Below are positions 2,376 through 62,195 of a DNA stretch of 64,000 bases, one piece after another. This DNA is from Yuukianura sp. NJ FZ-2021. Its lineage: Eukaryota. Positions within the stretch are counted from its first letter, which is position 1; every line of letters starts with the position of its first letter. Location of the stretch: the NCBI GenBank assembly GCA_046563655.1, contig CM102289.1, positions 2,666,001 to 2,730,000 on the forward strand. Direction: 5' to 3'. The position numbers and the translations under genes are program-made. A model generated the notes under the pieces. The model ran no database searches and had not been told where the DNA came from. It saw only the letters and a program-made list of their open reading frames with translations.

Positions 2376-5300
2376 TTAATTAGCTTGTAGAGCTGTGTTA
2401 AGCATTATATCAGATGATCATATGTGGGCGGTGGAGGTGGTTGTACTGTATTAAAATTTAATACATTTGAATAGTTTTTAAATAATTAAAAATTTTGGTT
2501 TCTAGTCATTCCAAACGGAATGCAGGTAAAACCTATTCGCGAAACTGGGTTTTCGCGGAGTTTGCGCCGAGCGCTCATGCTGGTGTAACACTTTCTGGGC
2601 AATTACACGCCATTCCATAGCAGTTTATGCCATGCGCAGGACAGTCTAATGTGACAAATAACAGAAACTTGACGGAACGGCATCAATACAAGTAAGGAAC
2701 CAAAATTTGTAATATTTTCTTACTGTTGTATTCCATTTTGTATTGCATTTACAAAAATTTCGGTTACTGTAAACCTCAACCTGCCGTACCCAAACAATTT
2801 ATCTAAAAATATTAAAAAATCCGAAATTTCAAATCAGAAAGAACAACGTTTCTAACTATTTGAAAACGAGTTTGTAAAATTCAACAATTTTTAATCAGTT
2901 ACCTTGCAAGTTGGGTGATATTTTTTGTACGCCGGCAATCTTCTTGAATTAGCCCATCCGACACACAAACGGCATAGGACGTTGGACGAACTTAATCGGC
3001 CTAATGTGGGGCAGTGGATTAAGCTTTTCCTTTTAAAGTGAGAACTGTTGATGTATTCAGAAGAAGCTGAAAAGCCGTGGAGCGGGAATGTTATTTTGAA
3101 CTGGAATATTCGTGGGAAGTGAGCGGATGAGGCTGATGCACAACGTGCTCTGAGGAACTGTTAGTTCTCCTAAGACTCTCCAGTCTAATTTGAACTTTCC
3201 CGGACTCTCAGCCTGTTGCAAGCCAAACGGAATGGAGGAGAGACTACTAGGGTTTGAACTGGGAAGACTTTCAACTCGTTCTTCCTCCTCCGAGAGGATT
3301 CGAAGGGCCTCCACTGCCTTGGCGGCATTCCCCTTAGGTTAGGTTAACCTAACCTTCCCTGCCTAGTTCCTGCTGCTGCTGCTCCGAAGGAGAAAGTGAA
3401 TCCCATTCAGGAGACTCAAGGCAGAAACTTCCCGAATCCAAGCCTCCGCCCAGCTAGACTTTCTCTTCTAGCATCCTAGTGCCTAGTGTCCTACAATCCA
3501 AGGTCTCTGTAACATACACAGTTTAAGGCACAGAGTTGGTGGATCCAGAAATCCTTGGAAGCAACGTGCCTTGACTTGGAACGGCACCAACGCACAAGTC
3601 CCCTCCTGCCCCTCCACCACCAGCTTTCTCTGCATTATTTTCACCACTGCAGCATTTCGACCTAGGACAGATGAAATTTCAAGTCCACAGAAAATCTCCT
3701 TTTCTTCCAAAACCACATCACACCATAGGATAGAAAAAATAACGTTGCAACGAAGCAAAATGCGGAGGAGACACTTTGCAGATATTAACTTTTACTTTCA
3801 ATAAATAACTTTCCCTTTCCACGCTTTTCCATTTACAGAAAACGACAAAAAAAGAAGCCGAATCTGAAATGATAGAAGTTGTACTTATTTTTTTTTTTTG
3901 TGTCTTCCAAAGAAATTCTAAAGTTTTTGTCAAGTTAATTTCCAAGTGTGCCGCCATGATTAAGTTTTGATCTTCCAAAATTTTATATGCTTAACACAGC
4001 GTTATGCTCCATATGGAACCTGCAACCTACAGATCATCAATCATCGCTTCAATTAGGAACGTGTGTAAAGACAAATTAAGTAAGCATCACAATTGCTGCC
4101 ACTCTGATTTGATTGGTTTTCTGACAAGAGACTATTTAAAATTAATTAAAAACTTTCCAAATCACTCAAAACAATCAAAACTTCCGAAAAAAATCAAAAT
4201 TTTAAATTTTCAAATTCTACAACTCACTCAAAATTTGGTTGACATGTGAGGAAAAATGGATCAAATTTGGAATTTCTTGATACAAATTGTAGGGAAATTT
4301 TTAAAATCTGAGCCTTGCATACAGTTTTCTTTTTCAATTTGTTTTTTTTTCTGAAGGAAACTCGCAATATGCGTCACCAAATAGCTTTTTTCTTGTTGAA
4401 AATGGAACAGAGTAATATCCGTTTTCAATTATTTGGAGTTCCGCAGCTGACGCTGACTTTAAGTCTTACGTTAAGAGCCATCGTTAAGATCAACGACCGC
4501 AACGCAACGGAGTTTATAACTTTTGGAACTGCTATGGCTGACGGGAGAGTTTTTCTGGAGCAATTTCTTCATAAAAAACGATGTCTGGTTCCAGCATCTT
4601 TCCATTTTGAAAGGCAGTTGACCGGGAGTTATATTGGACATAAAGAATTGTTCAAAAACTATGCACGCAACTTCTGCTTTCTATATAAAATCAATTGCTG
4701 AAATTTTGATTACTACTTCTATTAATGTCGAAAGCAGAAAAGAAGTTTTTTCGAAATTCTTCCGAAGTTACTTTATGTACTTCCAGATGTGAGTCACGTA
4801 AAGTCTTGATCCTGCTTCAAGAACAAGAGAACAAGAAGATGAAATTTTTTTCAAAATTTACTAACATTTTGCATCGGTTTGATGAAAACTGTTTCTCTTT
4901 TATTGAACTTCATCACATCAAAGTTTCCTTCAATTGAGCCAATCAGGAGACCCATGAAGCGTAACAAAAGAATCATCCGAAGACAATAGAGACTTTCTTT
5001 TTCCAAAATTCCAGCCTATTTTCAGTCTAAATTTTGAAGTTTCAAAAGAAAAAAGAAGTCCTGAGTTTCGATGATTCTGTTGATCTTTGCTCCAGAATTT
5101 TTCAAAATTTTCGAAAACGTATGCTGTAACTTTTCTAAAACTATGAACATAACTTTTATATAAGGTCGAACTTTCTACAAAGTGAAAGTGTAACAGCGTA
5201 AGTAGACTGTAGAGTTTTGAAATTGGACGCTCAAAAGTGGAATGACGAGGAAGTGCGGAAGGAACGTGTTGATTGGATACATTTTCTGCCTCAGTTGAAA

Positions 5301-32441: not shown

Positions 32442-33798
32442 TTAGCGCCCAAATCCAAATCCACCTCCGTTGTAACCAGCTCCACCGCCATGCCCAACGG
32501 AGCCACCACCACCATAACCAGCCTGGTAACCTTGGTCACCAAATCCACCTTGCTTCTTCCCAAATCCAGCACCATAGTTTCCTCCTAAAAATTAATGAAA
32601 AACCATAAAAATTAATTAAAATTGTAATTAAAATAATTAAAAGTTGAGGTCAAAGGTCATACCATAAGTGTTGTCATGGTGCACTCCCTTGGTGAATCCA
32701 TTTCCGAATGTGTTCCCTCCTTGTTGAGCGTATTTGGCATTGTTGTTGTGGTGAGCCTTCTGACCATGGACAGCATTGATTCCTTTGTTGGCAGCATTGT
32801 TGTGTCCAGCCAAGAAGTGTCCAGCATTATTTTGATGATTTTTGTTAAAAACGTTGGCATGGTGACCCTTGAAAAATCTGTCGCCCTTGACATCGTTACG
32901 GAATGCCCCTTCGTCTCCGAATTTGTCAAAAAAGTCGTCAACGTTGTTCTCATCATGGAACGTTTGTGTCTTCACAAACTCATCCTATTTGAACAAAAAA
33001 TTTAGAAAAATCCAAAATTTAAAAAAATTTAATTTTTTCAAAAAAATTTTTTGTATTCAATAGGTACCTTGTGAACTTGATTTCTGAAGCCCTTGGTGGC
33101 ATGACCCTTCTTGTGGTTTCCTTTGGCGCCAAATTTGTGTCCTTTGGCTGCTTTCACGGCGACGTCGTTATTTGCATAAATTGAGCCGTCATTTTTCGCG
33201 GCCTTTGCAAATCCACCAACATTTCCAAAGTTCCCTTTCTTCAAAGCGTTGTTGACATGCGCAGTTTGAGCTTTGTTGTGTCCATTGTTAGCGACAAAGC
33301 TTTGATCACCTTTGATTCCAGCGTTGGCTTTGTGAGCATTTGCGAAGGTGTTGCCGTAACCTTTGACATTATTGGCCGAACCGCCATACTGTGAGCTGAA
33401 GCTAAAAAAATAAAAAGAAATTTCAAAATTTTTCACAAAATTCGAGAAAGTCCAGAAAATGCAACTAGAGATTGGAAAAATGATACTTACTCTCCGCCAG
33501 TGCCAACTTGTTTAGCCCCACCAACATGACTTGACCCACCGTGGCCACCACCGTACCCACCGCTTCCTCCAAACCCACCTCCGTACCCACTACCACCGAA
33601 CCCACCACCACCGAATCCACCATGTCCATATCCGATTCCACCAGTCGCAGCAGTCTCCAAATCGGTTTTCACTGCAGCAGAACCTTCACTGGCGTCTTTC
33701 GTCAAGTCCAGGTCACTAGCTCTCGCTAGGTCAGCGGAAAATAATGTCAGGGTAAAGCAAAGTAAAGAAAAAAGCGGGAAAGTTTTGAACTGTCCCAT
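32442..33798 (-). CDS. Secreted Gly/His/Lys-rich protein (DUF4779-like, probable cuticular), 4 exons
   Basis: Signal peptide, DLETAAT motif, GGFGG/GGYGG repeats, and KGNHKKGHATKGFRNQVHK|DEFVKTQTFHDE, which resembles the arthropod DUF4779 core. Exons splice in frame to TAA at 32442-32444. Confidence 0.75.
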
Positions 33799-34636
33799 GA
33801 TTCAAAATTTTTAGGAACTTGTCAAATGTCCAGTCAATTCAACAATGGATAACGAAATGTCGGAAGTAAGACTATTTATACCAAATTGCCATAATTTTTA
33901 ATCTCCAATACTACCCACAAAAAATTGCTAAAAGAATTTGGATTTTGGGAATTCTTCGTTTAACCCAAGTTTAAGGTTTGCCTTTAGCAAGTTCAAGTGA
34001 TTTTTGGTTTTGGACAAGAAGGTTGCGGTTTGCCAGTTGAAATCGATGGTGCATGGGATGTGAGAATCAACTTTGAAGGGACAATGACAATACTATGATA
34101 GTTTAATAGTGCAAACCACTTTGTTGCTTTGGAATTCATCAAAACAATTACAAAAGTGGCAGAATTTGTGTAATTTGGATATTTCAAATCATTTGGTAAC
34201 CGGTACAAAGGGAGGTTCCAAGGAGAAGGAAGTGTGGAATTTGTAGTATACTTTGGGAATTCTCCTTAAACACTTAAATCAATTCTTTAGGTATTTTGGT
34301 TGTTAACGACTTACATAAACAATAGTGACAGTAGACGAGAAGGTGTCGACGATTATAAAGTGGTCACGCTTCAGGTCACTTCACTTAAAGAAAAGTTTGA
34401 CGGAAAAATTGTTTTTCAGGATTTTATTGACTCTTGCAAATGGGCAATAAATGAGACAATTACTACCATAATTAATGAACGCCAAGAAGTTTTTTGTGAA
34501 AATAAATGAGAAAAATAAAACTTTTGATTTTAGTTTATTAGGATTTTTTTTTGAAGGAGAGAATTTCGTTTTTCGAAAAAAATAAAATAAATCGTGCCAG
34601 TAAAGGTGAATGACGCTAGTGCCCGCTAGACGCGTG

Positions 34637-34749
34637 CAGTGTTGGTGGATATCCACATTTTCGACATTCCATCCACCCCATTTCTTCCACTGGATACCCA
34701 GTGGAAGTGGGAATTAAGCCACTGTGCGTTTAAACATCCACCAACACTG
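34637..34749. mobile_element. Short hAT-like MITE (113 bp)
   Basis: Perfect 14-bp TIR CAGTGTTGGTGGAT / ATCCACCAACACTG and an internal hairpin CTTCCACTGG...CCAGTGGAAG. The TSD is degenerate. Confidence 0.6.
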
Positions 34750-35148
34750 ATGCTGTGACGGTGGATTCCTCGGATTGTTCAGCTAGGAATCCTCAGCTTT
34801 TTTAAAAAATCGGTCGGTGAAACTCTAATAACAATTTCAAATTATATTTTTATATTGCAAATTGCAATGCTTAGGTTTGGTAAGATTTTTGCTAAACATA
34901 AACTGCGGATTGGCAGTGTACATCCCTCATACAACTCTGAGGAATCTGATGAGTCCGAGATACGACATTTAGTCAGACCCTTGCTCTTGTTTATCATTTG
35001 ATATTTTTTGAGGAATGGAATACTAAAGTACTTAAAATAAACAACTTAATCCATTTAATGATTTAAATTGAGGTTGGTTAATCAAAGTTCGAAGTCATTG
35101 CTCAATAGGATAATAAGTGCCGGAAGACAGTGTGAAAATTGTCTCGCC

Positions 35149-35742
35149 ATGCCATCCTACGAAGTGGCCCTCGTTTTGAAGAAAATGGCCAAAGCCGAAA
35201 CAGCGACCGTTTTAAAGCGCATAGCTACTCAAATACTAAGCAACAATGGAATTCTTTTCAAAATGGAGAATTTAGGTACGCGAGCTCTTCCGTATGTGAT
35301 GTCATCGCACGGATCAAAATACAAAGAAGGAAGGTATTAATCGCACGTTTATGATGTTCCAAGTTCCATAACGCTAATCGCCTTTCGTCTTGATTTTTGT
35401 TTTGTAGCTATTTTGTCATGCAGTTTGATTCCTCGCCAACTTTATTGGACACACTGACAGACGAGTATCGGAGGGACGTTGATATTATACGTTCAGGATT
35501 CACCAAAGTATCGTAAGTTCTCCAATTTCTTAGTTGGACCCATTCCTCATTTCTTGCGGATGCTTAACGTAGGTCTTCATTCCTTGTTTAGTGTCGAATC
35601 TGCGTATAATTGCACATTGGAAGAAGAACTGAAACCCCCTGCGTACCGCAAAGATGTCAAAGCCATGATCGAGGAGGGCCGAAAGCGAGAACGGATATTT
35701 AACCCCAACACAGGACTAAACTATAATCCATGGAGTCGATAA
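35149..35742 (+). CDS. MRPS6: Mitochondrial ribosomal protein S6 (bS6m); exons 35149-35333, 35408-35512, 35592-35742
   Basis: MPSYEVALVLKKM...MENLGTRALPY...EGSYFVMQFD...RDVDIIR...CTLEEELKPPAYRKDV. AATAAA at about 35895. Confidence 0.92.
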
Positions 35743-36269
35743 AGTTCAGTATACCTTCGTCACAGTTTGTGAACCTTTGTTAAAACTTGACGTCGATTCC
35801 TATAGAATAGTTTCCGACTTGTTCACAGTGTAGTAACGGCTGCTTTTTGGTCATGCTGGCCACACGAAGTTGCAATTTCAGATTTAGCTTTTGTAATAAA
35901 ACTTTAATCGTTTAGGTTAGTACTCATGTCGCGATGTGTTTGAGAAAACTTTCTCAAGCACATCTTAAACTTTCTACGGTTTCTTACCTCCAGCAATGAA
36001 CGCCTGAGCCTCTGATCAAGCGAACGGCAGATTTCGCGAAATTCTGAGGATTAGCCACACCGAAGTTCGCCGTGTGTAAAACACATTTCCTCTTTTATTT
36101 TTCTCCCTCCATTTAATGTTTAACCAATTTTTTTGTTTACGATTGAAGACGTCGAACGAAAGGACGAAAACAAAAATAGTCTCCTACCGGGACGTAGGGA
36201 GTGGGAGGTCGACATTTCCCTGGAAGGAGCAGAAGATACTCCAGCGAAATCATATTAGTAAAATTTAAA

Positions 36270-37480
36270 ATGTTTCGTTCACGTTCAGCAAGTATTTTGA
36301 CTTCTTACATAAGTAAAGTATTCAGGCAAGTGGAACAGAGACATAGTTATGCGAGCATCAGCGCGAATATCGCGCAAGCCGATAGCGCAGTGAAGATGGG
36401 AACTACTTCCGGAGACTTGTCGGAAGAAGCGACGTTAATTCGCTCAGGTAAATGCGTATAAAAAATGGTGATTTGATTTCGATTTAGGCGATTTAACTCC
36501 CTTGATTCTGTTTCCTCAGACAGAGGACCGCTTCCGATTATAACATCAAGGCAACTGGAATATTGTCCAACCCATAGAATCCCACGTCAAGCCTGGGTTG
36601 AAAACTTGGACACTATTGAAGAGGAAAAACTTGGCCTGGTTGACCTCCATCCTGATGTCTTTGCGCATTTTCCAAGAATGGATATACTACAGGAGAACAT
36701 CCGATGGCAAAACATGTACAAACGGATAGTGAGTCATGATACCGTCGTTTCAAAATTTATAACTAACCTGACCTTTTCTTAGTTAACTTTTGACAAATTG
36801 TGTTTAGGATTGGCACACAGTTAAAACCAGAGCTGAATTACCTGGCGGTGGAAGGAAACCATGGCCACAGAAGGGAACTGGACGTGCTCGTCACGGTTCC
36901 GTCAGAAGTCCACTTTTTCTGCATGGAGGGAAGGCTCACGGCCCGAGAGGACCGAAAACTCACTTCAACATGATTTCCTTCTTTACGCGTGTCAAGGGCC
37001 TTTGCATTGCTTTATCAATGAAGTTTGCCCAGGACGACTTAAAAATTGTCGATTCCTTGGAAATCCCGTCTGAGGATCCGGAGTTCCTAGAGGACTTGGC
37101 AGCGCAGCGCAGTTGGGGAATCTCTGTTCTCTTCGTTGACGAGTAAACTAAAACTTAAGTTACAAAATCTAAAAGAAACAGTCTAACTCATGTATTTAAA
37201 TCTTTCCAGCACGGACATGATGCCAAAGAACATATCACTTGCCACAGAGGTAGTGGGACACATCAACCTCATGCCAGTCTATGGCCTAAATTGTTACTCC
37301 ATGCTGAAGCATGAGACTCTCGTTCTTACAACAGCCGCTGTAAATCGGATTGAAGAGAGACTTCTTTTTCAATTGCATCGAAGTGACGCCCATGGCATGA
37401 TTCAGAAAAGTGCAAATCCTACTCAGGGTTCTGCTTATAGACCAAAGACACCTAGTACTGCCCAGTCAAGCCAACGCTAA
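36270..37480 (+). CDS. MRPL4: Mitochondrial ribosomal protein L4 (uL4m); exons 36270-36447, 36520-36728, 36808-37142, 37210-37480
   Basis: Arg/Ser-rich targeting peptide, then [72 protein letters not shown]. Confidence 0.95.
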
Positions 37481-37941
37481 AAATCCGTCAATCAATTAAA
37501 ATTAGAGCTGTTTCGGAATACTTTTACTAATAAATAACGTTATTCCAAAATTGCCTTATTTAGTTGGCCAACAGGCGTCACTTGCAATTTCACTCCCCCT
37601 TGTCACACTGATTAATCTAAAACAAGAGAAATCGGAAATATTTTCCATGATTATTGTCATGACATGACCTGCCACATTTTTCTTAATTACTTTCATCACT
37701 CATTAATCTCCGCCTGCAACCTCAGGAGAAATCTGTGACAAATATGGAAATGTGCAATATGTGCACAGTCAAAATTGAACACAACGCGGTAGCAAGGTAG
37801 CAAGTTAGCAAGGTAGCGCAAACACAACACAATTCCCGTGAACCAACCAACGGATTCTTGCAATTTCATTGTTAGTAAAGACAGTATACTAATCCCAACT
37901 AGTAACTAAGAAATAACAGAAAAAAAAACAAAACTAACAGT

Positions 37942-39224
37942 ATGAAGGTGAGACGGCAACCTGTTTTTCCAGCGCTTCCAGATTTCAACACGTAAGTCGA
38001 CACAGACTAAATTTCTCGCTTCTGTAAACAAATTAGTTGCCTCAGAATAAGTTTTATAACTTAAACAGAACCAAACCTAGAATTCTACTCGTCGTTCTAC
38101 TTTTCTTGCTGGTCTCTTTGGAGAATCTCGTTGTTGGAACCGGTACGTCAAATACGATGCAAGTCAAACAAGCAGCATCGATCTCTCCGAAACGGATTCC
38201 AGCGTTGCACGAAGTAGTATTTAACGTCTCCAAAAATCCAATAGCTGCTTATGTACAGGCCATAACGTGCTGTGGAACAGGAAACCAATTATATACGTAC
38301 GCTGCTGCATACGCCTTTTCGCGTACCTTAAAAATTCCGTTGGTAGTAGAAGTCAAACGTTGGACTTGCAAGTCTCGCTCTTTCACATTGGATTTGTTCA
38401 ACATTTCAAACTCAAACACGAAACTTGTCGCTTCCGAAGTCGGGAGAAACTTTTTACTCGCTAACAATGTTACACGCATCAACGAGTTGACTTTTCAGTA
38501 CGCCATGGATTACTTGAAAACACATGAGGAACGCTGCAACGGCAAAACTTGTGTATTTGTGTTCAATCACCATTTCCAGGTTCTTCCGTTCTTCGATACA
38601 TTCCGTAACGAATTGGCGGAAATTTTTAGTTTAGAAAAGTACATGAGTAATAGGAGCAAGAATCGTCAACAGAAGTCTATCAAACTACTGGAGAAAATTG
38701 GCCAAGTCGATAGCGTTGCCGTTCACATACGTCGTGGTGACTACGTACATTCAAAAAATTGTCATGCGCTGCTACCACTTGGATATTACATACATGCAAT
38801 GGAGAAACTCAAACAGCTGAGACGGGAAGCCCACTTCTTTGTCTTCTCCGACAGCATTGGCTGGGTAAAGACAGCATTTCAACGACTCAACTTGACGGCC
38901 ACGTACACCATAACGTTTGTAACTACGAAATACCAACTGAAGTCGCTGGACCAATTCTATGTAATGGGAAAGTGTAAACATTTCATAGTTGCTAATAGCA
39001 CATTTAGCTGGTGGGTAGCTTACTTAAACTCAATTAGAAATGGCACAATTGTTATAGCGCCGTTTCCAAATTTCCCAGAGTATGTATTTGTGGCGGGTAG
39101 CAAACGTAAAATACTAGAAGACGGGTACCCGCGGTACCCACCGGAATGGATCCTTCTAAACCCTGCTTGGAACACATCATCAACTAGACGCAAACTACAA
39201 AAGAAAAAAGTTATTAAAAATTAG
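37942..39224 (+). CDS. GT11 alpha-1,2-fucosyltransferase-like type II membrane protein; exons 37942-37991 and 38069-39224
   Basis: GTGNQLYTYA, VAVHIRRGDY, FFVFSDSIGWVK, CKHFIVANSTFSWWVAYL, VIAP. A phase-2 intron (GTAAGT...AACAG) joins a short Met exon to the TM anchor ILLVVLLFLLVSL. Confidence 0.88.
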
Positions 39225-39923
39225 CTCAAAACTGACACAAGAATAAATAAATTTATTCTGGGATTACCGTTAGGCCTACTCGTTATAGTTTCAATAACGT
39301 TCGGAAGAAATTTTAACCGAAGAAAGTAAAAAACGCAACAGATCTGTAAACTAGTATTTAGTTTATGTTTTCTTCCTACACTTCCGGGCTAATACGCTGC
39401 CTTGGTTAAATTTCATTAGGTTAATGCATGTTTTGAAATAGAGTGTTAGTAAATTTCACTCAACAAACTTAGACAACAAAAAGTTAGCACCAGAATAATT
39501 ATTAATTTCTCCTGATTTGTACTGTTTTAAAAACTACGATTAAAATAGAGTCATTAGTAGCTGTCTGGATATCGAGAAATTCGAAATTGGCATTTTCAAT
39601 TCCTGAGCCTTCGTATACTAATTAAGTTTAAGTTTTTTACACAGTTGACAACGTTTCAATATTTGCGAATCGGGCCAAGGCAAAACATGACACATCCATG
39701 GTAAGTTAAATTAATAAGTGCATGGGGCAAGACTTTTCAAAACGAAAAACAAAAACATTCGCCCTAACTCTAAGTTACTACTGTCAAATGGCTCGGTAAA
39801 AGGACGTTAAACGTAAACTGAAGATCCAGGCTATTAATTAAAAATAGTAAACTTAATAGCTGTTAAACTGTTAGATAATTTGACTCGGAAACATGAGAAT
39901 AGAAGATCATTTCTAAGGTTCTC

Positions 39924-41801
<1,878 letters not shown>

Positions 41802-44740
41802 CCACTAAAACAAAAACAAAAGGATGTTATGAGAAACTTAGTTCAGAAAAAAATTTTTTGGCAATAATGTTTTCCAAGTGGATAGGCCACAGACAGCAAA
41901 TATTTTTAAACCTGGTATATATTAGCAGTGGCAGTTTGGTTCATGCTTCTCCCACGATCGTAATTGTAATCGAACGCAACCGAAACGGTTTGATTGGAGA
42001 AAACACTACAAGTTCCTCACTGTGGTATCCCGAAACCCTGCAATTCACTTAAGACTTCAAACACGCAAAACCTACACAATGACACGTCACTTCCGATGAC
42101 ATCCCTTTCTAAATCTGAATAACTGCATGTTATAACTTTAAAACTCACTGTGATCCGACTCTCATCCTTTGAGATGATTCACCAATGTTTGTCTTCGAAA
42201 TTCATTTGACACCGCGAATGGTAGAAATTGTGATATGCTGATTCAGATGTATTCAAGATCGGGGTAAAGTATCAATCTCCTTATCAATGCGTAAAGAATT
42301 GATCAGTTGGAGTTGGAGGATCCTGATCCTGAATTAGTCCCAAGCGGTCATCTACAGATTTTGGCTGCTCCACACTTTTTGGATGCTGCAATACACACAA
42401 AGAAAACGAGTAGAGTAAGCTTTGCAATTAACCTTAAGTTAAAAAAAATATACCTTGAAATATAGAACTTGCGTGCCTACAATAGAGAAACAACGTATTA
42501 AAACGTTTCAACGTTTTTTAAGTACTAATTAAAAGCGCAGGCAAAACTAACAATAACTGTGCTTGATTCAAGATTTAAAGATTTATATCACAGTTGACCA
42601 ATCAAGAATCAAGGTCATAAGGACCTCTGTGTGTATGGCAGAAGGTATTTACAATTACAATAGAAAAGCAATAGGAACTTCCGCTTTAATCAGAACTTCA
42701 TTGTGTTTAGTAATCTGTCATCTCTATTCTGGATCTTTTACTTTCTCTTCACACACAATTTTTTGTTGTTGTTGTCCACTAGTCTACCATGAATCATGAT
42801 TATTTTTACACAGAAATCATATTATTCTATGGGAACTTTTGGTAAAGTTCACACGAAATCCCATTCCCAAATCCCAATTACCGAGTAAAAGCTGAATTTG
42901 TTTCTTTTTTTTTCTGTAATACTTATCTGATTCTGGATCAATCCAAACAATATGTCCTTCGATTCTCTATGCTACATAGGAGATAGTAAGCATATGCGAA
43001 ATCGGATAATGGCAAAGGCCAAAATACCTACATGTATTTTAATTTGAAAACTCGGGGATCTCAGTTCCAAACACAATGAAGTTAATCTAAAATCTGGTAA
43101 AGGATTGCGTAAAGGTTAATACGACACACAAATTAGTAATCTGCTGCTGATTAAAGTGTGCCTGTTTCAGTATTAAATTTCTACGAACGGAGAAACAGCT
43201 GACAGGGAAAGCTGACGTGCTAATGCCTTTTGCTGGCTAGGACGAGACTTAGTACTTAACATTTGATCAAGTTTCTTATAAGTAAAGATTTGCAAAACCT
43301 ACCTAATAAGAGTAATGAACTTCTCAGAGCTCAATTAACTAAAAATCCAAATTGATCAAAGTTAACTTACGCATTCGTTGAATGACATAATCACAATTGC
43401 TGCATCTGTAAAAGAGCAGAGATTCCGCAGTGCGTGCGACTTGGTTGGATGAAAGAAACCGATGAAAAAGAAAAAGTGATCTTGAATTCCAGAGAGAGTG
43501 GAGCGGAGATCCGACAGAAATTGGAGATTGGAATTCGAGGAATGTGTACTTGCTCAAGGTATTCGATACATTCACTTTCTATTGTTGATGTGCTGTGTGT
43601 CTGACAACAAATCCAACCGCAGCAAGTGGATCTTCTTGTTTGTCCTATTGTGTTCCACCTTACTCCTTCTCCACCTGGGTCTCCCGTCTGTTTACAGATG
43701 AAGATTCGGAATTCCTCAGAAACACGAAAGACACGAGCGAGGCAGGGAATAATACAGGGCATATGGAAGGAATTTCCCTTATAATGATGTTAATCTTAAG
43801 CTGCGGAATGCAACTCCAACACGTCAAAGACCGAAGGCTCAAATCTGTTAACAAATCCAAAGTCAAAGTGGGCTCGATTGTTTTGTCTGAAAGGTGCAGG
43901 GATATGAAGAATCTCTCTGCGATTGTCCTACGCCCTCAATTCAAAAAATAGAATAAGGTAAAATGACTTTAAGGCCATTCAAAGCGATGAATACGAAAGG
44001 CGACCATATATTTTCCTGAAAAAGAAATTAACTACACCCTAAATCGTCGCATATGACGTGCGCCATATTCTACATTTTTTCGATTCTAAAACAGGCTACA
44101 AGTAAAATCCTGCATTTTTGGCATTAAGACGGGTGCAGATACGGCGTAATGTTTACGACTAATAAAAGAAAGCACAAGTACGCGGTATATCCGAGGATTT
44201 AGGGTAATACAAGTGAATTTTCCAGCTTTTTAGTCGTGTTTCTGAAAAAAAATCAAAAATCTATACAATACTGGGTGGAATCGTTAGAATAATTATGTTA
44301 TTTTAGCAAGGAAGAAATTATGTTCAGCAAACGACGGCATGACAGATGTAATTACGATGGCTAGTGTTAGAGGTAATTCTGGTAATTAGCTGATGTCGAT
44401 ACTACTTGAGTAACTTATTAATGTGTTATAAGTTTTCAAAGGATGCGACGCTGGAGCGCATTAGAATTTCGTATTTCCCCCCTTTTTGACTTTCTAAATA
44501 TGGAATTTAGCCTCTGGGTCTTCTTCTTTTATTAGTTTTTTTGAAACTCAGTTTTTCCAATTTTTGTTACAAAAAGAGAAGTGAAAGTTAGTCAAAAAGT
44601 TGTTCGGAAAATGGAACAATTTTTTACATAACAATGGACAGTCTGTTTTTATTTTTTCCTTTTAAAAGACACCAAGTGGGTGTCATGTTTTAGTCGCATC
44701 AAGAAGCGGAAGCATTTTGGAGATTTCCGAAAAATCTAAG

Positions 44741-56451: not shown

Positions 56452-58896
56452 ATGGTTTACGAGTGCTGTGATCGGAAAATTTACTATGTACGGGTCAAAA
56501 CAGAAATTTGCAGATACGTTTTAATATTCTACTGGAAACTTCTTAGAAGCCAAAATTCTTTGTTTGATTTCAGTATGGAGATCCAGAATTGGAAAAAATC
56601 ACGGATATCCGTAGCCGACTATGTAAGCCGCAAGTGTACGCAGATATTGTAAGTTCTCTCAAAAAATCTGGCGGGAACTTTCAAGATCCTGAATTTCCAC
56701 ATACCGAGGAATCTGTGGGCGACGTTCTCGATAAGTTACTGGACACAGCTAATCCGAATAACGCAAAAAAAGTTGAAGATTGGAGAGCACGGGGTTGGGA
56801 TGAAAAACTGCACTTTAAACGCTGTTCCGTAATTCTGTTTAAAAAAGTTCTTCAGATGAAAAAAATTTCTGGTGCTACTATTTGTTTTGAATACTTTGTA
56901 GGACTTTGTAAAAAATGGTTTTGGAAAACAATATAAAGCCGTTTTCAACGATGGAGATTTTGGAGAGTCAAAAGCTCGAATGGACATTCATCAGGGAATG
57001 ACCGGTTAGTCACATTTTGAAAGACAAATTCAAATTTTTCCAAAATTTTCATTAAGCTGTTTTTGAACTATCAATCAAATTTCAATTTTTAATGTAAAAG
57101 GTGACTGTTGGTTGGTGAGTTCCATTTCGGCTGTTACACTGGACAAAAGCTTGATTGATTTTGCTGTACCGTCGGAAAATGCCACAAATGATGCTGGGGT
57201 GTACCATTTTCGGTAAAAAGAAAATCACACACTACTTTTAAAAAATTTTGATATTATAATTTGAAATTCGAAATTTTAACTACGCTTGTTGTTAAATAGC
57301 TTCTGGTACGAGGGTGTCTGGGTTGATGTTGTTGTGGACGATTACATTCCTTGCTACATCGTTGGTAAACAGTATATAACACTTGGATCAAAAATTACGA
57401 GAGACCAAAAAACTCGTATCGCTGAATTTTGGGTTCCGTTGCTCGAAAAAGCATACGCGAAGTACGATAAAAAATTATTTTTAAATCGACCATTTTTTTT
57501 TTGGCATTCAAATTTCAAAAATACTGCAAATTATTTGAGAATAATTTGTGTTTAAATTTTAGGTTAAACGGTGGTTACCAGTATATCAGTGGCAATTGGC
57601 CAATTTACTCTCTTCAAAATTTGACGGGCGGCTTTGGCCAGGGATTCAAGTTACCCGGAGGCGGGACAGATTCCGATCCGGATTTGGGCGACGTCAGTGC
57701 CCACAACCATTCTGGAGAAGCTGGAAGTGATGACAAACAAGCTGACGACGGAGGAAATGACGACTCAGATCTAGAAGACGACTACAACTGGGAGAATAAC
57801 GACAATACCGAAGGGGAAGCCTGTGACGAGTTATGTTCCTTGGATGGAACTGGACCACAGTTTTCCTCTTACGGCAAAATTGAAAAGTGGATCGGCAGAG
57901 GCTTGCTGGTTTGCGCCTGCACTTCTCGCAGCGCCAAAGGAATTCGTGGACCTCACGCTTATTCCCTTACAGGCACTGCTGAAGTCAAAAAAACCGACGG
58001 AACTACTGTCCAATTAGTTCGATTTCGGAATCCCTGGGGTCATACGGAATGGAGCGGCCCATGGTCAGACAAATCCGACCGCTGGAGTATGGTTTCAGAG
58101 GAACAGAAGAAGGCGTGTGGCTTTTTAGACAAAGACGATGGCGAATTTTACATGAAGTTTGAAGATATGTTCAAGTACTTTACGCAACTGACGACTTGCT
58201 ACTGCTTTAAGCCCGACGATGTAAGAAACATGAAGCAGGAAACGCACTTCAGCAAGTGGTCGAAGGCGGAAAACACAGCGGGTGGATCAAGTGAGTCAAA
58301 AATAAACAGATTTCACCAACATTCAAAAAATGTTGAATATAGTTCAGATTATTTTTTAAAATGCTTGCAGATCGCATCGAGAACAACCCGAAATTTCCAA
58401 TAACACTGAAGGCAGAAGATCCAGATCAGTGGTTTGTTTTGGTGATTAATGTTACACTGAACGTGAAGTTGAAGACAACTGTGGGCCGTGGCTTCCACAT
58501 TAGTCTCTACAAGGTATGGATAGACGTTGGCATTAGCTAACAGTTTAAAAAAAAATTACTTTTCAATTTTCACTAACTTCCTTTTAAAAAAAGTAAGCTT
58601 AATTTTTGGTTATTTGTCTGATTCCTTGTTTAAATGAAACTCAGGACACGGATCCTCCTGCAAAAACATACGGAAAAGGATTCTTCAAACCTTATAATCA
58701 ACTTATCCCAGACGGATTCCTGGAGTTGACAAAAGTTACACCATCGGATAAGAAAACGTTGACGAGGGAATTTCATCTTGTGAATGGAAACTACGTCATT
58801 GTGCCACATACGGTTTCATCGGGCGTCGAGTACGAATTTTCTCTGCGTGTTTTGAGCTTTGAATCAAACGAAAAATTGAAGGAATTAAACGTTTAA
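56452..58896 (+). CDS. Calpain-like cysteine protease, copy A (CysPc plus domain III, no PEF domain), 8 exons
   Basis: FQDPEFP, QGMTGDCWLVSS (Cys), WVDVVVDDYIP, EFWVPLLEKAYAK, HAYSLTG (His), RNPWGHTEWSGPWSD (Asn), DDGEFYM, GNYVIVPHT..EFSLRV. Confidence 0.92.
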
Positions 58897-59765: not shown

Positions 59766-62195
59766 ATGGTTTACGAGTGTTGCGATCGTAAAATTTACTA
59801 CGTACGTCCCATAACAGGAATTTTGAAATATATTTTAATATTTTACTTTTTTTAAACCGAAAATAGACCAATGAATACTTTGCTTGGTTTCAGTATGGAG
59901 ATCCGGAGTTGGAAAAACTCACGGATATCCGTAGCCACCATGGCCAGCCGCAAGTGTACGCGGATATTGTAAGTTCTCTCAAAAAATCTGGCGGCAACTT
60001 TCAAGATCCTGAATTTCCGCACACTGAGGAATCTGTGGGCGACGTTATCGAAAAGTTACTGGACAAAGCTAATCCGAATAATGTAAAAAGAGTTCAAAAT
60101 TGGAGAGCAAAGGGATGGGATGGAAAAGTGCACTTTGAACGCTGTTCCGTAATTCTGCTTTTTTTTTAAAATCTTCAAGTTGGAAAAATTTCTGTTACTA
60201 ATTTCATGTGAATACATTGTAGGATTTTGTAAAAAATGGTTTTGGAAAACAATATAAGGCCGTTTTCAACGATGGAGATTTTGGAGAGTCAAGAGCTCGA
60301 ATGGACATTCTTCAGGGAATGACCGGTTAGTCACATTTTGAAAAGCAAATTCAAAAATTTGTTAAATGCATTGTGCTTCAAATTTCAATTTTTAATTTGC
60401 AAGGTGACTGTTGGTTTGTGAGTTCCGTTTCAGCCGTTACGCTGGACAAAAGCTTGATTAATTTTGCTATACCGTCGGAAAATGAAACAAATGATGCTGG
60501 AGTGTACCATTTCCGGTAAAAAGAGAGTCACAAATTTCTAACAGAAACTGTAAATTTTAGGTTCCAAATTCAAAGTTCAAATTTTTTATAACGTTGTTTT
60601 TTGTTAAACAGCTTCTGGTACGAGGGCGTCTGGATTGACGTTGTTGTGGATGACTACATTCCTTGCTACATCGTTGGTAACCAGTATATAGCACTTGGAT
60701 CAAAAATTACGAGAGACCAAAATACACATATCGCCGAGTTTTGGGTTCCGTTGCTCGAAAAAGCATACGCGAAGTAAGATCTTTAAAAAAAACATAATAA
60801 AAATGGACCATTTATATATTGCAAAAAAAAACTTTGATTTCTTTCTGACATCACAACTTTATTTCTTTAATGAAAATAATTTATTTTTAAATTTTAGATT
60901 GAACGGGGGTTACCAGTACATCAGTGGCAATTGGCCAATTTACTCTCTTCAAAATTTGACGGGCGGTTTCGGACAAGGATTCAAATTGCCCGGAGGCGGG
61001 AAAGATTCTGATCCTGATTTGGGCGACGTCAGTGCCCGCATCGAATCTGAACCAGCTTCAGCTGACGACGGAGGCGACGATTCGGACCTAGAAGACGACT
61101 ACGAATGGGAGATTCACGACGAATGGGAAGCCTGGGCCGAGTATTGTGCATTGGATGAAACTGGGCTTCCGTTTTACTTTTACGACAAAATTAAAAAGTG
61201 GATCGGCAGAGACTTGCTCATTTGCGTGTGCACTACAGACAGTGCCAAAGGAATTCATGGACATCACGCTTACTCCCTTACAGGCACTGCTGAAGTCAAA
61301 AAGACCGACGGAACTAATGTTCAGTTGGTTCGAATTCGGAACCCTTGGGGTCATGGCGAATGGAGTGGCCCATGGTCAGACCAATCTGACCGGTGGACCA
61401 AGGTTTCAGAGGAACAGAAGAAGGCGTGTGGCTTCTTAGACAAAGACGATGGAGAATTTTACATGAAGTTTGAAGATATGGTCAAGTACTTTACGCAACT
61501 CACGACTTGCTACTGCTTCAAGCCCAACGATGCAAGAAACATGAAGCAGGAAACGCATTTCAGCAAGTGGTCAAAGGCGGAAAACACAGCGGGTGGATCA
61601 CGTGAGTCGAAATTCAAGAAATCGCATAAGTAGGTATTTAAAAAAAAACATTGAATACAATTCAGATTATTATTGAAAATGTTTGCAGAACACATTGAGA
61701 ACAACCCAAAGTTTCCAATAAGCCTGAAGGCGGCAGATCCTGATCAGTGGTTTGTTTTGGTGATTAATGTCACGTTGAAGGTGAAGTTAAAGACAATTGC
61801 GGGTCATGGTTTCTACATCAGTCTGTACAATGTAAGCAAAGAAATTGGAATAGCCAAGCGCTGAACAAAATTAATTTATTTATTTTTTTTTTCAAAATTT
61901 TTAATTTTCTTTTATTTTTCTGACTACTTTTTTAAATGAAACTCAGGACACAGATCCCCCTGCGAAAACATACGGGAAAGAATTTTTCAAACCTGATGAT
62001 GAAATTATCCCAGACGGATTCCAGGATTTGACAAAAGTTACAGCGTCGGACAAGAAAACGTTGACGAGGGAATTTCATCTTCAGAGTGGAAATTACGTTA
62101 TTGTGCCCCACACAGCTTCATCTGGCGTCGAGTACGAATTTTCTCTGCGTGTTTTGAGCTTTGAATCAAACGAAAAAATTGAAGAATTACTGTGA
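59766..62195 (+). CDS. Calpain-like cysteine protease, copy B (tandem paralogue), 8 exons
   Basis: Same exon structure as copy A: QGMTGDCWFVSS, HAYSLTG, RNPWGHGEWSGPWSD. Stop TGA at 62193-62195. Confidence 0.92.

What the first reader, a model, noticed from the sequence alone, without database searches (positions are those of the whole stretch)
37942..39224. Bacterial-type GT11 fucosyltransferase fitted with a eukaryotic anchor and a 5' intron: horizontal transfer candidate
Seen: the whole catalytic domain lies in one 1.15-kb exon, whereas most neighbouring genes are broken by introns every 50-300 bp. The only intron is upstream of the TM anchor. The C-terminal motif is CKHFIVANSTFSWWVAYL...VIAP. 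Known: bacterial alpha-1,2-FucTs (FutC/WbsJ type) carry IANSTFSWW, whereas vertebrate FUT1/2 carry TIGTFGxW; Drosophila has no GT11 enzyme. Inference: a bacterially derived enzyme was domesticated into a Golgi type II protein and could give this animal H-antigen-like glycans. It sits between native MRPL4 and Csk, which argues against contamination.
Basis: partly seen in the sequence, partly recalled or inferred. Interest (0 to 1): 0.7.

Follow-up and report, generated by a model that had tools for sequence, protein, structure and literature searches.

The report
Anchored bacterial-type fucosyltransferase gene in arthropod
This is a real, intact, spliced arthropod gene for a membrane-anchored GT11 fucosyltransferase whose catalytic core looks bacterial, but it belongs to a group already present in springtails, a fungus gnat and a ciliate, so any bacterial origin is old and shared, not a recent event in this animal.

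Summary
A 401-codon gene has exon 1 at 37942-37991, a 77-nt GT..AG intron at 37992-38068 and exon 2 at 38069-39224. It lies between a split mitochondrial L4 gene and a convergent SH2/tyrosine-kinase (Csk-like) gene. It matches Pfam GT11 and keeps the HxRRxD and NSTFSWW motifs. Its model has a fucosyltransferase GT-B fold. It has a type II anchor. A transcript-like contig skips exactly the predicted intron.

The horizontal-transfer reading is only partly supported. The core is 24-41% identical to bacterial GT11s (best segments) and 24-40% to viral ones. No donor is close. Codon usage matches the neighbouring genes. In trees built on core columns only, the protein sits with 100/99 support in a clade of N-terminally extended, mostly anchored, long-tailed GT11s. 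That clade holds Folsomia, Orchesella, Bradysia and the ciliate Stylonychia. The nearest relative is an unnamed metagenome protein at 45% identity. An alien index from named hits is about 1 to 7. One clade of all the arthropod sequences is not rejected (p-AU 0.485).

I could not obtain classical metazoan FUT1/2-type sequences, so the root is open. The linkage made and the acceptor are untested.

The parts
37942..37991 (+). Exon 1: start codon and most of the cytosolic tail (MKVRRQPVFPALPDFN plus 2 nt). A stands at -3 of the ATG.
   Evidence: An X4 contig continues from here into exon 2 (table 5c).
37992..38068 (+). The only intron: 77 nt, GT..AG, GC 0.33, phase 2.
   Evidence: Sequence. X4 joint 37985 to 38069 with 6 bridging letters. 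Neighbouring introns are 67-119 nt, median 79.
38069..39224 (+). Exon 2: anchor, stem, the whole GT11 catalytic domain and the stop codon TAG.
   Evidence: Pfam PF01531, 91 bits, E 1.1e-25. AlphaFold2 model with pLDDT 82.3.
38082..38138 (+). Signal-anchor (transmembrane) segment, residues 22-40 of the 401-aa protein. The tail before it has 5 K/R against 1 D/E, which fits type II topology.
   Evidence: mean hydropathy 2.66. The model shows a helix at residues 3-21 of P0001.
38724..38744 (+). HIRRGDY, the HxRRxD donor-binding motif of alpha-2/alpha-6 fucosyltransferases.
   Evidence: R221 is invariant; H219, R222 and D224 are at least 90% conserved in the 91-sequence alignment. The role of the motif is taken from PMC4202792.
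38991..39014 (+). ANSTFSWW, the C-terminal GT11 motif.
39063..39221 (+). C-terminal extension after VIAP, ending in ...YPPEWILLNPAW... plus a basic end. The tail after the motif is 69 residues, against a median of 37 in the 300 sequences outside the clade.
   Evidence: Of 80 prokaryotic matches, 59 stop by residue 337 of P0001.
39242..39247 (+). AATAAA, a candidate polyadenylation signal 18 nt after the stop codon.
   Evidence: Sequence. Its use is inferred only.
36270..37480 (+). Upstream neighbour: mitochondrial ribosomal protein L4 gene. Exons end or start at 36442, 36515-36728, 36808-37142 and 37210-37480.
   Evidence: Pfam Ribosomal_L4. Best named hits are arthropod uL4m at 65-71% identity. 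Spliced X4 contig. The start at 36270 is inferred from the frame.
39924..42148 (-). Downstream convergent neighbour: SH2 plus tyrosine-kinase (Csk-like) gene with at least 9 introns. Its 5' end lies beyond 42148.
   Evidence: Pfam SH2 and PK_Tyr_Ser-Thr. Nine CT..AC joints in X4. An X5 genomic contig spans 38877-40485 and links it to the GT11 3' end (record 28).

Best explanation
This is a native, single-copy (within the window), two-exon arthropod gene. It encodes a 401-aa type II membrane protein with a short basic cytosolic tail, a signal anchor, a disordered stem and a luminal GT-B catalytic domain of CAZy family GT11. It most likely sits in the Golgi and uses GDP-fucose, bound through the HxRRxD arginines, to add fucose with inversion to a terminal sugar. 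The acceptor is most probably galactose in alpha-1,2 linkage. The catalytic core is of the bacterial/phage GT11 type. The gene is nevertheless one member of an older clade of GT11s with an N-terminal extension (mostly a hydrophobic anchor) and a long C-terminal tail, borne by eukaryotes: springtails, a sciarid fly, a ciliate and many unnamed sequences. If the clade came from bacteria, that happened long ago and before this lineage. The gene is not a recent acquisition of this animal. Shown here: gene structure, splicing, linkage, family membership, fold and clade membership. Inferred: Golgi location, donor, linkage, acceptor and bacterial ancestry of the clade.
For: Gene and locus: the spliced frame is open for 401 codons. 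A transcript-like X4 contig skips exactly 37992-38068. X4 contigs also skip introns of all three neighbouring genes, so X4 behaves as cDNA although it is labelled 'DNA?'. An X5 genomic contig from another study spans 38877-40485, from GT11 to the Csk-like gene. X1 covers 30 of 30 bins.

Composition: GC 0.42, GC3 0.446 and an RSCU correlation of 0.51 with 1712 pooled native codons. Five native controls give 0.26-0.63. The intron is 77 nt against a median of 79 for neighbours.

Family and fold: PF01531 at 91 bits against a cut-off of 23.9. The protein has the consensus residue at 28 of 29 invariant or near-invariant family positions. The AlphaFold2 model has pLDDT 82.3 and pTM 0.79. The best Foldseek matches are FUT8, POFUT1, AtFUT1, NodZ and POFUT2, at E 1e-7 to 6e-6 and probability 1.0.

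Topology: a hydrophobic 19-mer at residues 22-40. The tail before it has 5 K/R against 1 D/E. Eight N-x-S/T sequons lie on the luminal side.

Clade: in FastTree of 353 GT11s, all 33 sequences flagged as anchored fall in one clade of 53 (support 0.975). IQ-TREE LG+G4 on 58 rows and 250 core columns, without anchor or tail, splits 27 long forms from 31 bacterial and viral rows at 100/99. Window plus P0131 get 100/99. With named rows only, 7 eukaryotes form a clade at 94/95. Shared traits: tail median 58 against 37 residues, tail of 50 or more in 44 of 45 against 2 of 292, and an N-terminal extension of median 55 against 7 residues.

No close donor: matches in 80 kept prokaryotic loci are 24-41% identical (best segments), and those covering most of the domain 24-32%. 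Viral matches are 24-40%.
Against: No classical metazoan GT11 (vertebrate FUT1/2, nematode, mollusc, Daphnia) could be put in the tree, so the root is unknown. It follows that bacterial ancestry of the clade is also unknown. With the whole protein as query, the ESM Atlas puts mollusc and chordate GT11 clusters nearest (score 0.96). This is a lead only, but it points the other way.

Only 5 species in the clade are named. The others are unnamed contigs, and some, such as the P0011/P0153 group of 306-324 aa on contigs up to 122 kb, could be bacterial.

The mixture-model trees did not finish. All support values therefore come from LG+G4, which is more prone to long-branch effects, and the bootstraps had not settled (correlation 0.94).

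RNA evidence for the GT11 junction is a single contig at depth 2.56 from a diverged allele.

No enzyme activity, donor, linkage or location has been measured. GT11 also contains an alpha-1,3-fucosyltransferase (PMC4202792).
Confidence: 0.64

Rival explanations
1. One reading: a recent, lineage-specific transfer of a bacterial alpha-1,2-fucosyltransferase gene into this animal, which was then given an anchor and an intron.
For: The best E-values among proteins of near length go to short forms, of which the named ones are bacterial (5.1e-29). The core alone is nearest to phage GT11 clusters in the Atlas. The catalytic domain is uninterrupted in an intron-rich locus. No close annotated relative of the host appeared in the L4 search (65-71% identity), so the distribution among near kin is unknown.
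Against: On core columns the protein groups at 100/99 with other eukaryotic anchored forms, not with any bacterial group. The anchor and the tail insertion are shared with them. The best bacterial matches covering most of the domain reach only 24-32% identity. Codon usage and GC3 are native. The alien index is 0.85-6.9. A 45%-identical relative exists in a different, unnamed organism.
Confidence: 0.08
2. No horizontal transfer at all: an ancient eukaryotic or metazoan GT11 subfamily, inherited vertically and lost in most lineages, including Drosophila.
For: The clade spans a ciliate and three arthropod groups. Holding all arthropod rows as one clade costs only 0.99 lnL, with p-AU 0.485. The split between the clade and the bacterial and viral rows could itself be the root. 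The whole-protein Atlas neighbours are mollusc and chordate GT11 clusters.
Against: No named mollusc, chordate, nematode or crustacean GT11 appears among the best 120 hits of the clade profile, whereas about 100 mostly short hits, of which every named one is bacterial, do. That search is word-limited. Human FUT2 is reported as only 12-17.5% identical to bacterial GT11s, against 24-41% here (best segments). The named members are few and are soil or freshwater organisms, and a paper passage reports that genes called as horizontal transfers in Folsomia candida are enriched for carbohydrate-active enzyme domains (PMC5490193). Vertical descent would need very many losses.
Confidence: 0.22
3. Contamination or misassembly: a bacterial gene wrongly placed in an animal contig.
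For: Nothing beyond the sequence similarity of the core to bacterial GT11s.
Against: The gene has a spliceosomal intron that is skipped in a transcript-like contig. A genomic contig from a second study links it to the Csk-like gene. Cover is even in X1. Composition is native. The anchor, stem and sequons are eukaryotic features.
Confidence: 0.01
4. A decaying or non-catalytic relic, or a lectin-like protein, that no longer transfers fucose.
For: The transcript-like contig is at low depth. The stem and the GxGNQ neighbourhood are divergent (CCGTGNQ). No activity data exist.
Against: The frame is open for 401 codons. The protein has the consensus residue at 28 of 29 conserved family positions, and the one change is F to Y. 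The only coding-region indel listed among the 12 indels shown (77 more were not shown), at 38089, removes 3 nt and keeps the frame. The fold is confident across the domain.
Confidence: 0.05

Closest known systems
'O-antigen biosynthesis glycosyltransferase WbnK(-like)' / 'L-fucosyltransferase' gene models of springtails (Folsomia candida, Orchesella cincta, O. dallaii) and the fungus gnat Bradysia coprophila, and the 'glycosyl transferase family 11' protein of the ciliate Stylonychia lemnae
   Same: They fall in the same clade on core columns (100/99). They have the same architecture: N-terminal anchor, stem, GT11 core, a roughly 20-residue insertion after (I/V)AP and an ending of ...YPxxWIxxNP(F/W). 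They share the same motifs.
   Different: Identity to the window protein is only 26-34% across alignment A3. The window protein and P0131 form the deepest branch of the clade and carry an extra basic C-terminal end. These database entries are automatic names only. I found no paper that discusses them.
P0131, an unnamed 333-aa protein from a 2714-nt JGI/IMG metagenome contig
   Same: It is the nearest relative: 45% identity, E 4e-70, over residues 60-371, with the same tail motif (...YPSKWILINPW).
   Different: Its organism is unknown. The model starts 9 residues before the first strand and has no anchor. That would fit a prokaryotic gene call on an exon that follows an intron, but I could not check this because its contig could not be fetched.
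Bacterial GT11 alpha-1,2-fucosyltransferases (H. pylori FutC, E. coli WbsJ/WbwK/WbnK type)
   Same: Same family and same motifs (GxGNQ, HxRRxD, NSTFSWW). Identity is 24-41% (best segments), and 28% to the H. pylori locus L037. The predicted fold class is the same.
   Different: The bacterial enzymes are about 270-300 aa and mostly have no extension before the first strand (median 7 residues) and short tails (median 37). They sit in polysaccharide gene clusters, whereas this gene has an anchor, stem, sequons, an intron and animal flanks.
Vertebrate FUT1/FUT2 (H and Secretor enzymes), the classical metazoan GT11s
   Same: Same CAZy family, type II Golgi architecture and HxRRxD motif. The expected reaction is Fuc-alpha-1,2-Gal.
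   Different: From recall only, the vertebrate C-terminal motif is TIGTFGxW rather than NSTFSWW. Human FUT2 is reported as 12-17.5% identical to bacterial GT11s (PMC4202792). None appeared among the listed hits.
FUT8, NodZ (GT23), POFUT1 (GT65), POFUT2 (GT68) and plant FUT1 (GT37)
   Same: These are the best structural matches to the model (Foldseek E 1e-7 to 6e-6, TM 0.34-0.53). All are GDP-fucose-dependent inverting GT-B enzymes.
   Different: Sequence identity is 10-15%. They belong to other CAZy families and use other acceptors. No GT11 structure was found in the PDB by sequence (0 hits at E up to 1).

Membership tests
CAZy GT11 / Pfam PF01531 (Glyco_transf_11) | Score above the curated Pfam cut-off | tested here: met
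   91 bits against a cut-off of 23.9, E 1.1e-25, covering profile positions 107-285 of 298. Bacterial and anchored relatives score 66-107 bits.
CAZy GT11 / Pfam PF01531 (Glyco_transf_11) | HxRRxD donor-binding motif, N-terminal GxGNQ motif and C-terminal NS(T/S)(F/Y)SWW motif | tested here: met
   HIRRGD at residues 236-241, GTGNQ at 86 and ANSTFSWW at 325 of the 401-aa protein. The protein has the consensus residue at 28 of 29 conserved positions. The role of the motif is taken from PMC4202792.
CAZy GT11 / Pfam PF01531 (Glyco_transf_11) | GT-B-type fucosyltransferase fold | tested here: met
   Model pLDDT 82.3. Top Foldseek matches are FUT8, POFUT1, NodZ, AtFUT1 and POFUT2, all at probability 1.0. 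This rests on a predicted model, not a solved structure.
CAZy GT11 / Pfam PF01531 (Glyco_transf_11) | Transfer of fucose from GDP-fucose with inversion (alpha-1,2 to Gal in most members) | not testable with these tools
   An enzyme assay is needed. The family also holds an alpha-1,3 enzyme.
Eukaryote-borne anchored GT11 clade (springtail, Bradysia and Stylonychia 'WbnK-like' proteins) | Falls inside the clade in a tree built without the clade's own trait columns | tested here: met
   58 rows and 250 core columns, IQ-TREE LG+G4: the 27-row clade has 100/99. The named-only set gives 94/95. The mixture-model runs did not finish.
Eukaryote-borne anchored GT11 clade (springtail, Bradysia and Stylonychia 'WbnK-like' proteins) | N-terminal hydrophobic anchor with stem, and a long C-terminal tail ending YPxxW(I/L)xxNP(F/W) | tested here: met
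   Anchor at residues 22-40. The tail is 69 residues, against a clade median of 58 and an outside median of 37. The window protein reads YPPEWILLNPAW.
Bacterial FutC/WbsJ/WbnK-type alpha-1,2-fucosyltransferase (as a member, not only as a likeness) | Short protein of about 270-300 aa without an N-terminal extension, encoded in a prokaryotic polysaccharide locus | tested here: not met
   401 aa with anchor, stem, an intron and animal flanks. It falls outside all bacterial groups in the trees.
Classical metazoan GT11 (FUT1/FUT2/Sec1, nematode CE2FT type) | Groups with these in a rooted tree | not tested
   No such sequence could be fetched with the tools on hand. None was named among the best 120 hits of either protein search.
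Horizontally transferred gene (usual operational criteria) | Alien index well above the threshold (30-45, recalled) | tested here: not met
   ln(4.9e-26/2.1e-26) = 0.85 using named hits (Bradysia against Ruminococcus). ln(4.9e-26/5.1e-29) = 6.9 using the best short unnamed hit. The index is blunted because other arthropods carry clade members.
Horizontally transferred gene (usual operational criteria) | Nested within donor-domain sequences in a rooted tree | tested here: inconclusive
   With midpoint rooting, the clade sits among bacterial and viral rows in the 101-row tree but forms one side of the root in the 58-row tree. No outgroup was available.
Horizontally transferred gene (usual operational criteria) | Physically integrated in the host genome (native flanks, intron, host-like composition, expression) | tested here: met

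The most novel reading that the evidence does not exclude
The window gene and its unnamed relatives define an undescribed GT11 lineage borne by eukaryotes. In this reading a bacterial or phage fucosyltransferase core was captured once, fitted with a type II anchor and a C-terminal extension, and then passed between unrelated soil and freshwater eukaryotes (ciliates, springtails, sciarid flies, this arthropod). Carriers would gain H-type or other fucosylated surface glycans that their relatives lack, with possible roles in interactions with microbes.
Probability: 0.3. Interest if true: 0.6.

Novelty: new member of a known kind. Interest (0 to 1): 0.4.

Why it matters
By recall, insects such as Drosophila have no GT11 enzyme. 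A working one here would add a terminal fucose epitope to this arthropod's glycans that is not expected in that group. More broadly, the same anchored, bacterial-type GT11 occurs in springtails, a fungus gnat, a ciliate and this arthropod. That pattern is either a clear case of an old gene capture spreading among soil and freshwater eukaryotes, or a forgotten ancient eukaryotic subfamily with massive loss. One rooted tree would decide between them. As it stands, the finding is a sound annotation plus a correction: the gene is not a recent alien in this animal.

Tried and rejected
No whole genome is held for the window, so paralogues and sister-species orthologues could not be sought. tblastn inside the window finds only this copy.

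No listed run is on record as RNA. X4 is treated as cDNA-like only because its contigs skip introns. X2 has no cover at 37674-44000, and parts of X5 are uncovered. Neither fact is used as evidence.

PDB by sequence gave 0 hits. NCBIfam gave 0 families for 7 proteins.

Earlier findings of this scan returned nothing by place, by sequence or by words.

The metagenome scan found only two distant loci (27-29% identity) and not the contig of P0131. Cluster look-ups for 30 proteins named only Folsomia and Stylonychia; most entries are unnamed. The control genomes of the genome search hold no GT11 (0 of 14), so they gave no metazoan sequences.

Mixture-model (PMSF) trees of 101 rows did not finish on one CPU. 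The careful LG+G4 run of 101 rows also did not finish, so only its quick tree is used.

No repeats or target-site duplications flank the gene; only short, chance-like matches were found.

Pfam scores do not separate anchored forms (66-97 bits) from bacterial forms (70-107 bits).

Literature: I found no paper on arthropod or eukaryotic bacterial-type GT11. The Daphnia Pasteuria-resistance fucosyltransferases are described in the passages as potentially alpha-1,3 enzymes and lie in a different locus, so they are not relevant here (PMC11500718, passages). The two supplementary files of the Folsomia genome paper that are held as text contain no fucosyl, WbnK, GT11 or PF01531 term. Its other supplements, and those of the Orchesella paper and the Archegozetes preprint, were not seen and may list such genes.
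Full report
**1. What is in the sequence**

An ATG at 37942 opens a 50-nt exon (MKVRRQPVFPALPDFN plus two bases). GT at 37992 and AG at 38067-38068 bound a 77-nt intron. The frame then runs from 38069 to a TAG at 39222-39224. Joined by coordinates, the frame is open for 401 codons.

The stop-to-stop frame at 38037-39224 (395 codons) is the longest of the 23 frames of at least 130 aa in the 64-kb window. No ATG lies in that frame before the hydrophobic segment. The anchor can therefore only be translated from exon 1 through the splice.

The upstream neighbour matches Pfam Ribosomal_L4 (E 5.6e-27 and 3.4e-6 for two exons). MRPS6 lies further upstream. The downstream neighbour, on the other strand, matches SH2 (E 2.4e-24) and tyrosine kinase in several exons. 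The L4 exon's best named hits are mitochondrial L4 proteins of arthropods at 65-71% identity: scorpion, horseshoe crab, ticks, hemipterans, a centipede. The host is therefore an arthropod without a close annotated relative in that collection. No whole genome is held for it.

**2. Independent read evidence**

Four coded runs were laid on 34000-44000.

- Run X4 is labelled 'DNA?', but its contigs skip 15 listed introns. These are GT..AG in MRPS6 and MRPL4 and CT..AC in the Csk-like gene, 67-119 nt long. X4 therefore behaves as cDNA.
- One X4 contig at depth 2.56 goes from 37985 to 38069 with six letters between. These equal 37986-37991 with two differences. The transcript therefore skips 37992-38068, exactly the predicted intron, in a diverged allele.
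- Run X5, from another study and organism label, has a 1610-nt unspliced contig on 38877-40485. It links the 3' end of the gene to the last exons of the Csk-like gene. X5 also has an 814-nt contig on 37920-38717.
- X1 covers all 30 bins, but it may be the window's own sample.
- The only coding-region indel among the 12 indels listed (77 more were not shown), at 38089, removes 3 nt and keeps the frame.

Contamination and misassembly are thus excluded for practical purposes. Expression is shown only as presence, not level.

**3. The protein**

Pfam GT11 (PF01531) scores 91 bits against a cut-off of 23.9. The three family motifs are present: GTGNQ at residue 86, HIRRGDY at 236 and ANSTFSWW at 325. 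The protein carries the consensus residue at 28 of 29 invariant or near-invariant positions of a 91-sequence alignment. The one exception is F75Y.

A 19-residue segment at 22-40 has a mean hydropathy of 2.66. It follows a 21-residue tail with 5 K/R and 1 D/E. Eight N-x-S/T sequons lie on the C-terminal side and one lies in the tail. This is the layout of a type II Golgi glycosyltransferase.

The AlphaFold2 model built with the 91-row alignment has mean pLDDT 82.3 and pTM 0.79. It shows an N-terminal helix, a low-confidence stem and a two-lobed alpha/beta domain. Foldseek against the PDB gives 107 matches at E up to 0.001. Human FUT8 leads at 1.2e-7, followed by POFUT1, Arabidopsis FUT1, NodZ and POFUT2. 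All are GDP-fucose-dependent inverting GT-B enzymes. No GT11 structure was found by sequence.

From a review (PMC4202792, passages read): the first arginine of HxRRxD is critical in alpha-2 and alpha-6 fucosyltransferases, WbsJ needs no metal, and GT11 also contains an alpha-1,3 enzyme. Donor and inverting chemistry are thus well grounded by family. The alpha-1,2 linkage to galactose is the likeliest guess, not a result.

**4. Relatives**

*Word-indexed search.* It scored 8000 candidates, of which 3952 had E up to 0.001, and listed 120. The best are 28-38% identical. Short proteins of 270-300 aa, of which the named ones are bacterial, lead at 5.1e-29 (the named Ruminococcus hit is at 2.1e-26). 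They are mixed with 347-377-aa forms that include Bradysia coprophila (4.9e-26) and Folsomia candida (5.0e-25).

*Exhaustive HMMER search of 1.84 billion representatives.* It found 19,770 hits at E up to 0.001. One hit stands out: P0131, 333 aa, 45% identity, E 4e-70. It comes from a 2714-nt metagenome contig and has no name. Everything else is at 29-45% identity.

*Profile of 23 long forms.* The top hits named were Orchesella cincta, O. dallaii, Folsomia and Bradysia, and only after them bacteria. No mollusc, chordate, nematode or crustacean was named among the 120 listed. That search is word-limited and capped. A ciliate, Stylonychia lemnae, is also a member.

*Prokaryotic genomes.* One genome from each of 185,579 prokaryotic species was scanned. 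The 80 kept matches are 24-41% identical (best segments). The best E-values are 3e-34 and 2e-33. Of the 80, 59 stop by residue 337, before the C-terminal extension.

*Viral contigs, including giant-virus bins.* Identity is 24-40%. There is no close donor.

**5. Trees**

*FastTree.* It used the 353 stored GT11 proteins of 230-470 aa (shorter and longer ones were dropped) and 274 columns. All 33 sequences flagged as anchored fall into one clade of 53 (support 0.975). Window plus P0131 have support 0.976.

*IQ-TREE quick search, LG+G4.* It used 101 rows, after dropping nine near-duplicates from the clade, two redundant named bacteria and four loci. A clade of 43 rows has SH-aLRT 95. It holds every long form and no named bacterium or virus.

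*Core-only tree.* That alignment kept columns of the long tail, so I repeated the analysis on 58 rows using only columns filled in at least 85% of rows. This left 250 columns, without the anchor or the tail insertion. The split of 27 long forms against 31 bacterial and viral rows has 100/99 support (bootstrap/SH-aLRT). Window plus P0131 have 100/99, and the other 25 long forms have 97/95.

*Named rows only.* With named rows plus six unnamed short forms (38 rows), the seven eukaryotes form a clade at 94/95. Forcing the six arthropod rows into one clade, with the ciliate excluded, costs 0.99 log-likelihood units (p-AU 0.485). Arthropod monophyly is therefore not rejected.

*Control and cautions.* A Lactobacillales MAG protein with an N-terminal hydrophobic segment (L019) still falls among bacteria. 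Mixture-model runs did not finish. The bootstraps had not settled. There is no outgroup.

*Shared traits.* The clade's shared traits are strong.

| Trait | Inside the clade | Outside the clade |
|---|---|---|
| Tail after the motif, median | 58 residues | 37 residues |
| Tail of 50 residues or more | 44 of 45 | 2 of 292 |
| Residues before GxGNQ, median | 55 | 7 |

**6. Signs of age**

GC is 0.42 and GC3 is 0.446. The RSCU correlation with 1712 pooled codons of neighbouring and other window genes is 0.51. These values lie inside the native range: GC3 of native genes is 0.27-0.62, and five native controls give correlations of 0.26-0.63. The intron length matches the local median. No flanking repeats were found.

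An alien index is 0.85 using named hits and 6.9 using the best short unnamed hit. The usual cut-offs, which I recall as 30 or 45, are not reached.

**7. ESM Atlas (leads only)**

With the whole protein as query, the nearest clusters are eukaryotic GT11s, with mollusc and chordate labels (0.96). With the core alone (residues 58-335), the nearest are phage and giant-virus GT11 clusters (0.94-0.96). This fits a prokaryote-type core in a eukaryote-type frame, but it carries little weight.

**8. Reading**

The interpretation needs correcting. The core is indeed of the bacterial type. But the 'fitting' with an anchor and tail was not done in this animal. It is shared with a well-supported clade that spans springtails, a sciarid fly, a ciliate and many unnamed sequences, and the nearest relative is itself only 45% identical.

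The data fit an old capture of a bacterial or phage GT11 by some eukaryote, followed by vertical descent with loss and/or spread between eukaryotes. My odds are about 0.64 for the statement as worded. Purely vertical ancient ancestry remains open at about 0.2, because classical metazoan GT11s could not be brought into the tree. A recent transfer into this lineage is unlikely, at about 0.08.

Function is inferred as a Golgi GDP-fucose fucosyltransferase, probably alpha-1,2 to galactose.

**9. Literature**

I found no paper that discusses these arthropod or ciliate GT11s. The database names ('WbnK-like') are automatic. Passages in the Folsomia genome paper say that genes called as horizontal transfers there are enriched for carbohydrate-active enzyme domains, glycosyltransferases among the three largest classes (PMC5490193). 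Passages in the Archegozetes preprint report candidate transfers related mainly to carbohydrate metabolism. The two Folsomia supplement files held as text do not mention this family. Other supplements were not seen.

Noticed in passing
window 37602 (between the L4 gene's stop at 37480 and the GT11 start at 37942): A 2958-nt contig of X2 and the spliced L4 contig of X4 both leave the window sequence at 37602 (loose end ATTGATTGATTG...). A diverged haplotype or strain therefore has different sequence just upstream of the GT11 gene. X2 has no cover at 37674-44000, not even on the Csk-like gene, so nothing can be said about presence or absence of GT11 there.
   Followed up: no
window 39087-39602: An X4 (cDNA-like) contig covers this stretch at depth 33, against about 2 on the GT11 body. 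It is probably the 3' UTR of the convergent Csk-like gene, running antisense over the last ~140 nt of the GT11 coding region.
   Followed up: no
window 34334-35001: Contig depth is 2500-4000 in X1 against about 220 around it, with many loose ends at 34636-34749. This is a dispersed repeat just upstream of MRPS6.
   Followed up: no
window 57471-58403 and 60692-61633 (+): Two long, closely similar open frames about 3.2 kb apart share stretches such as ...RNPWGH.EWSGPWSD.SDRW. They look like tandem duplicates of a calpain-like protease exon. That name is from reading only, not from a search.
   Followed up: no
window 33038-33801 (-): Glycine-rich open frames with a weak match to Pfam GRP (E 2e-5, below the cut-off) lie next to the MRPS6/MRPL4 pair.
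   Followed up: no
L019:2878-3987 (uncultured Lactobacillales MAG contig): A 370-aa bacterial GT11 has an N-terminal hydrophobic segment and an 82-residue tail, yet falls among bacteria in the trees. N-terminal anchors on GT11 therefore arose more than once.
   Followed up: partly
P0389 (Orchesella cincta, 700 aa); P0398 and P0399 (650-674 aa, PF09612 plus PF01531): Double-length or fused GT11 proteins rank high against the long-form profile. One is a springtail protein that scores like two tandem GT11 domains, and two are fusions with an HtrL/YibB domain.
   Followed up: no
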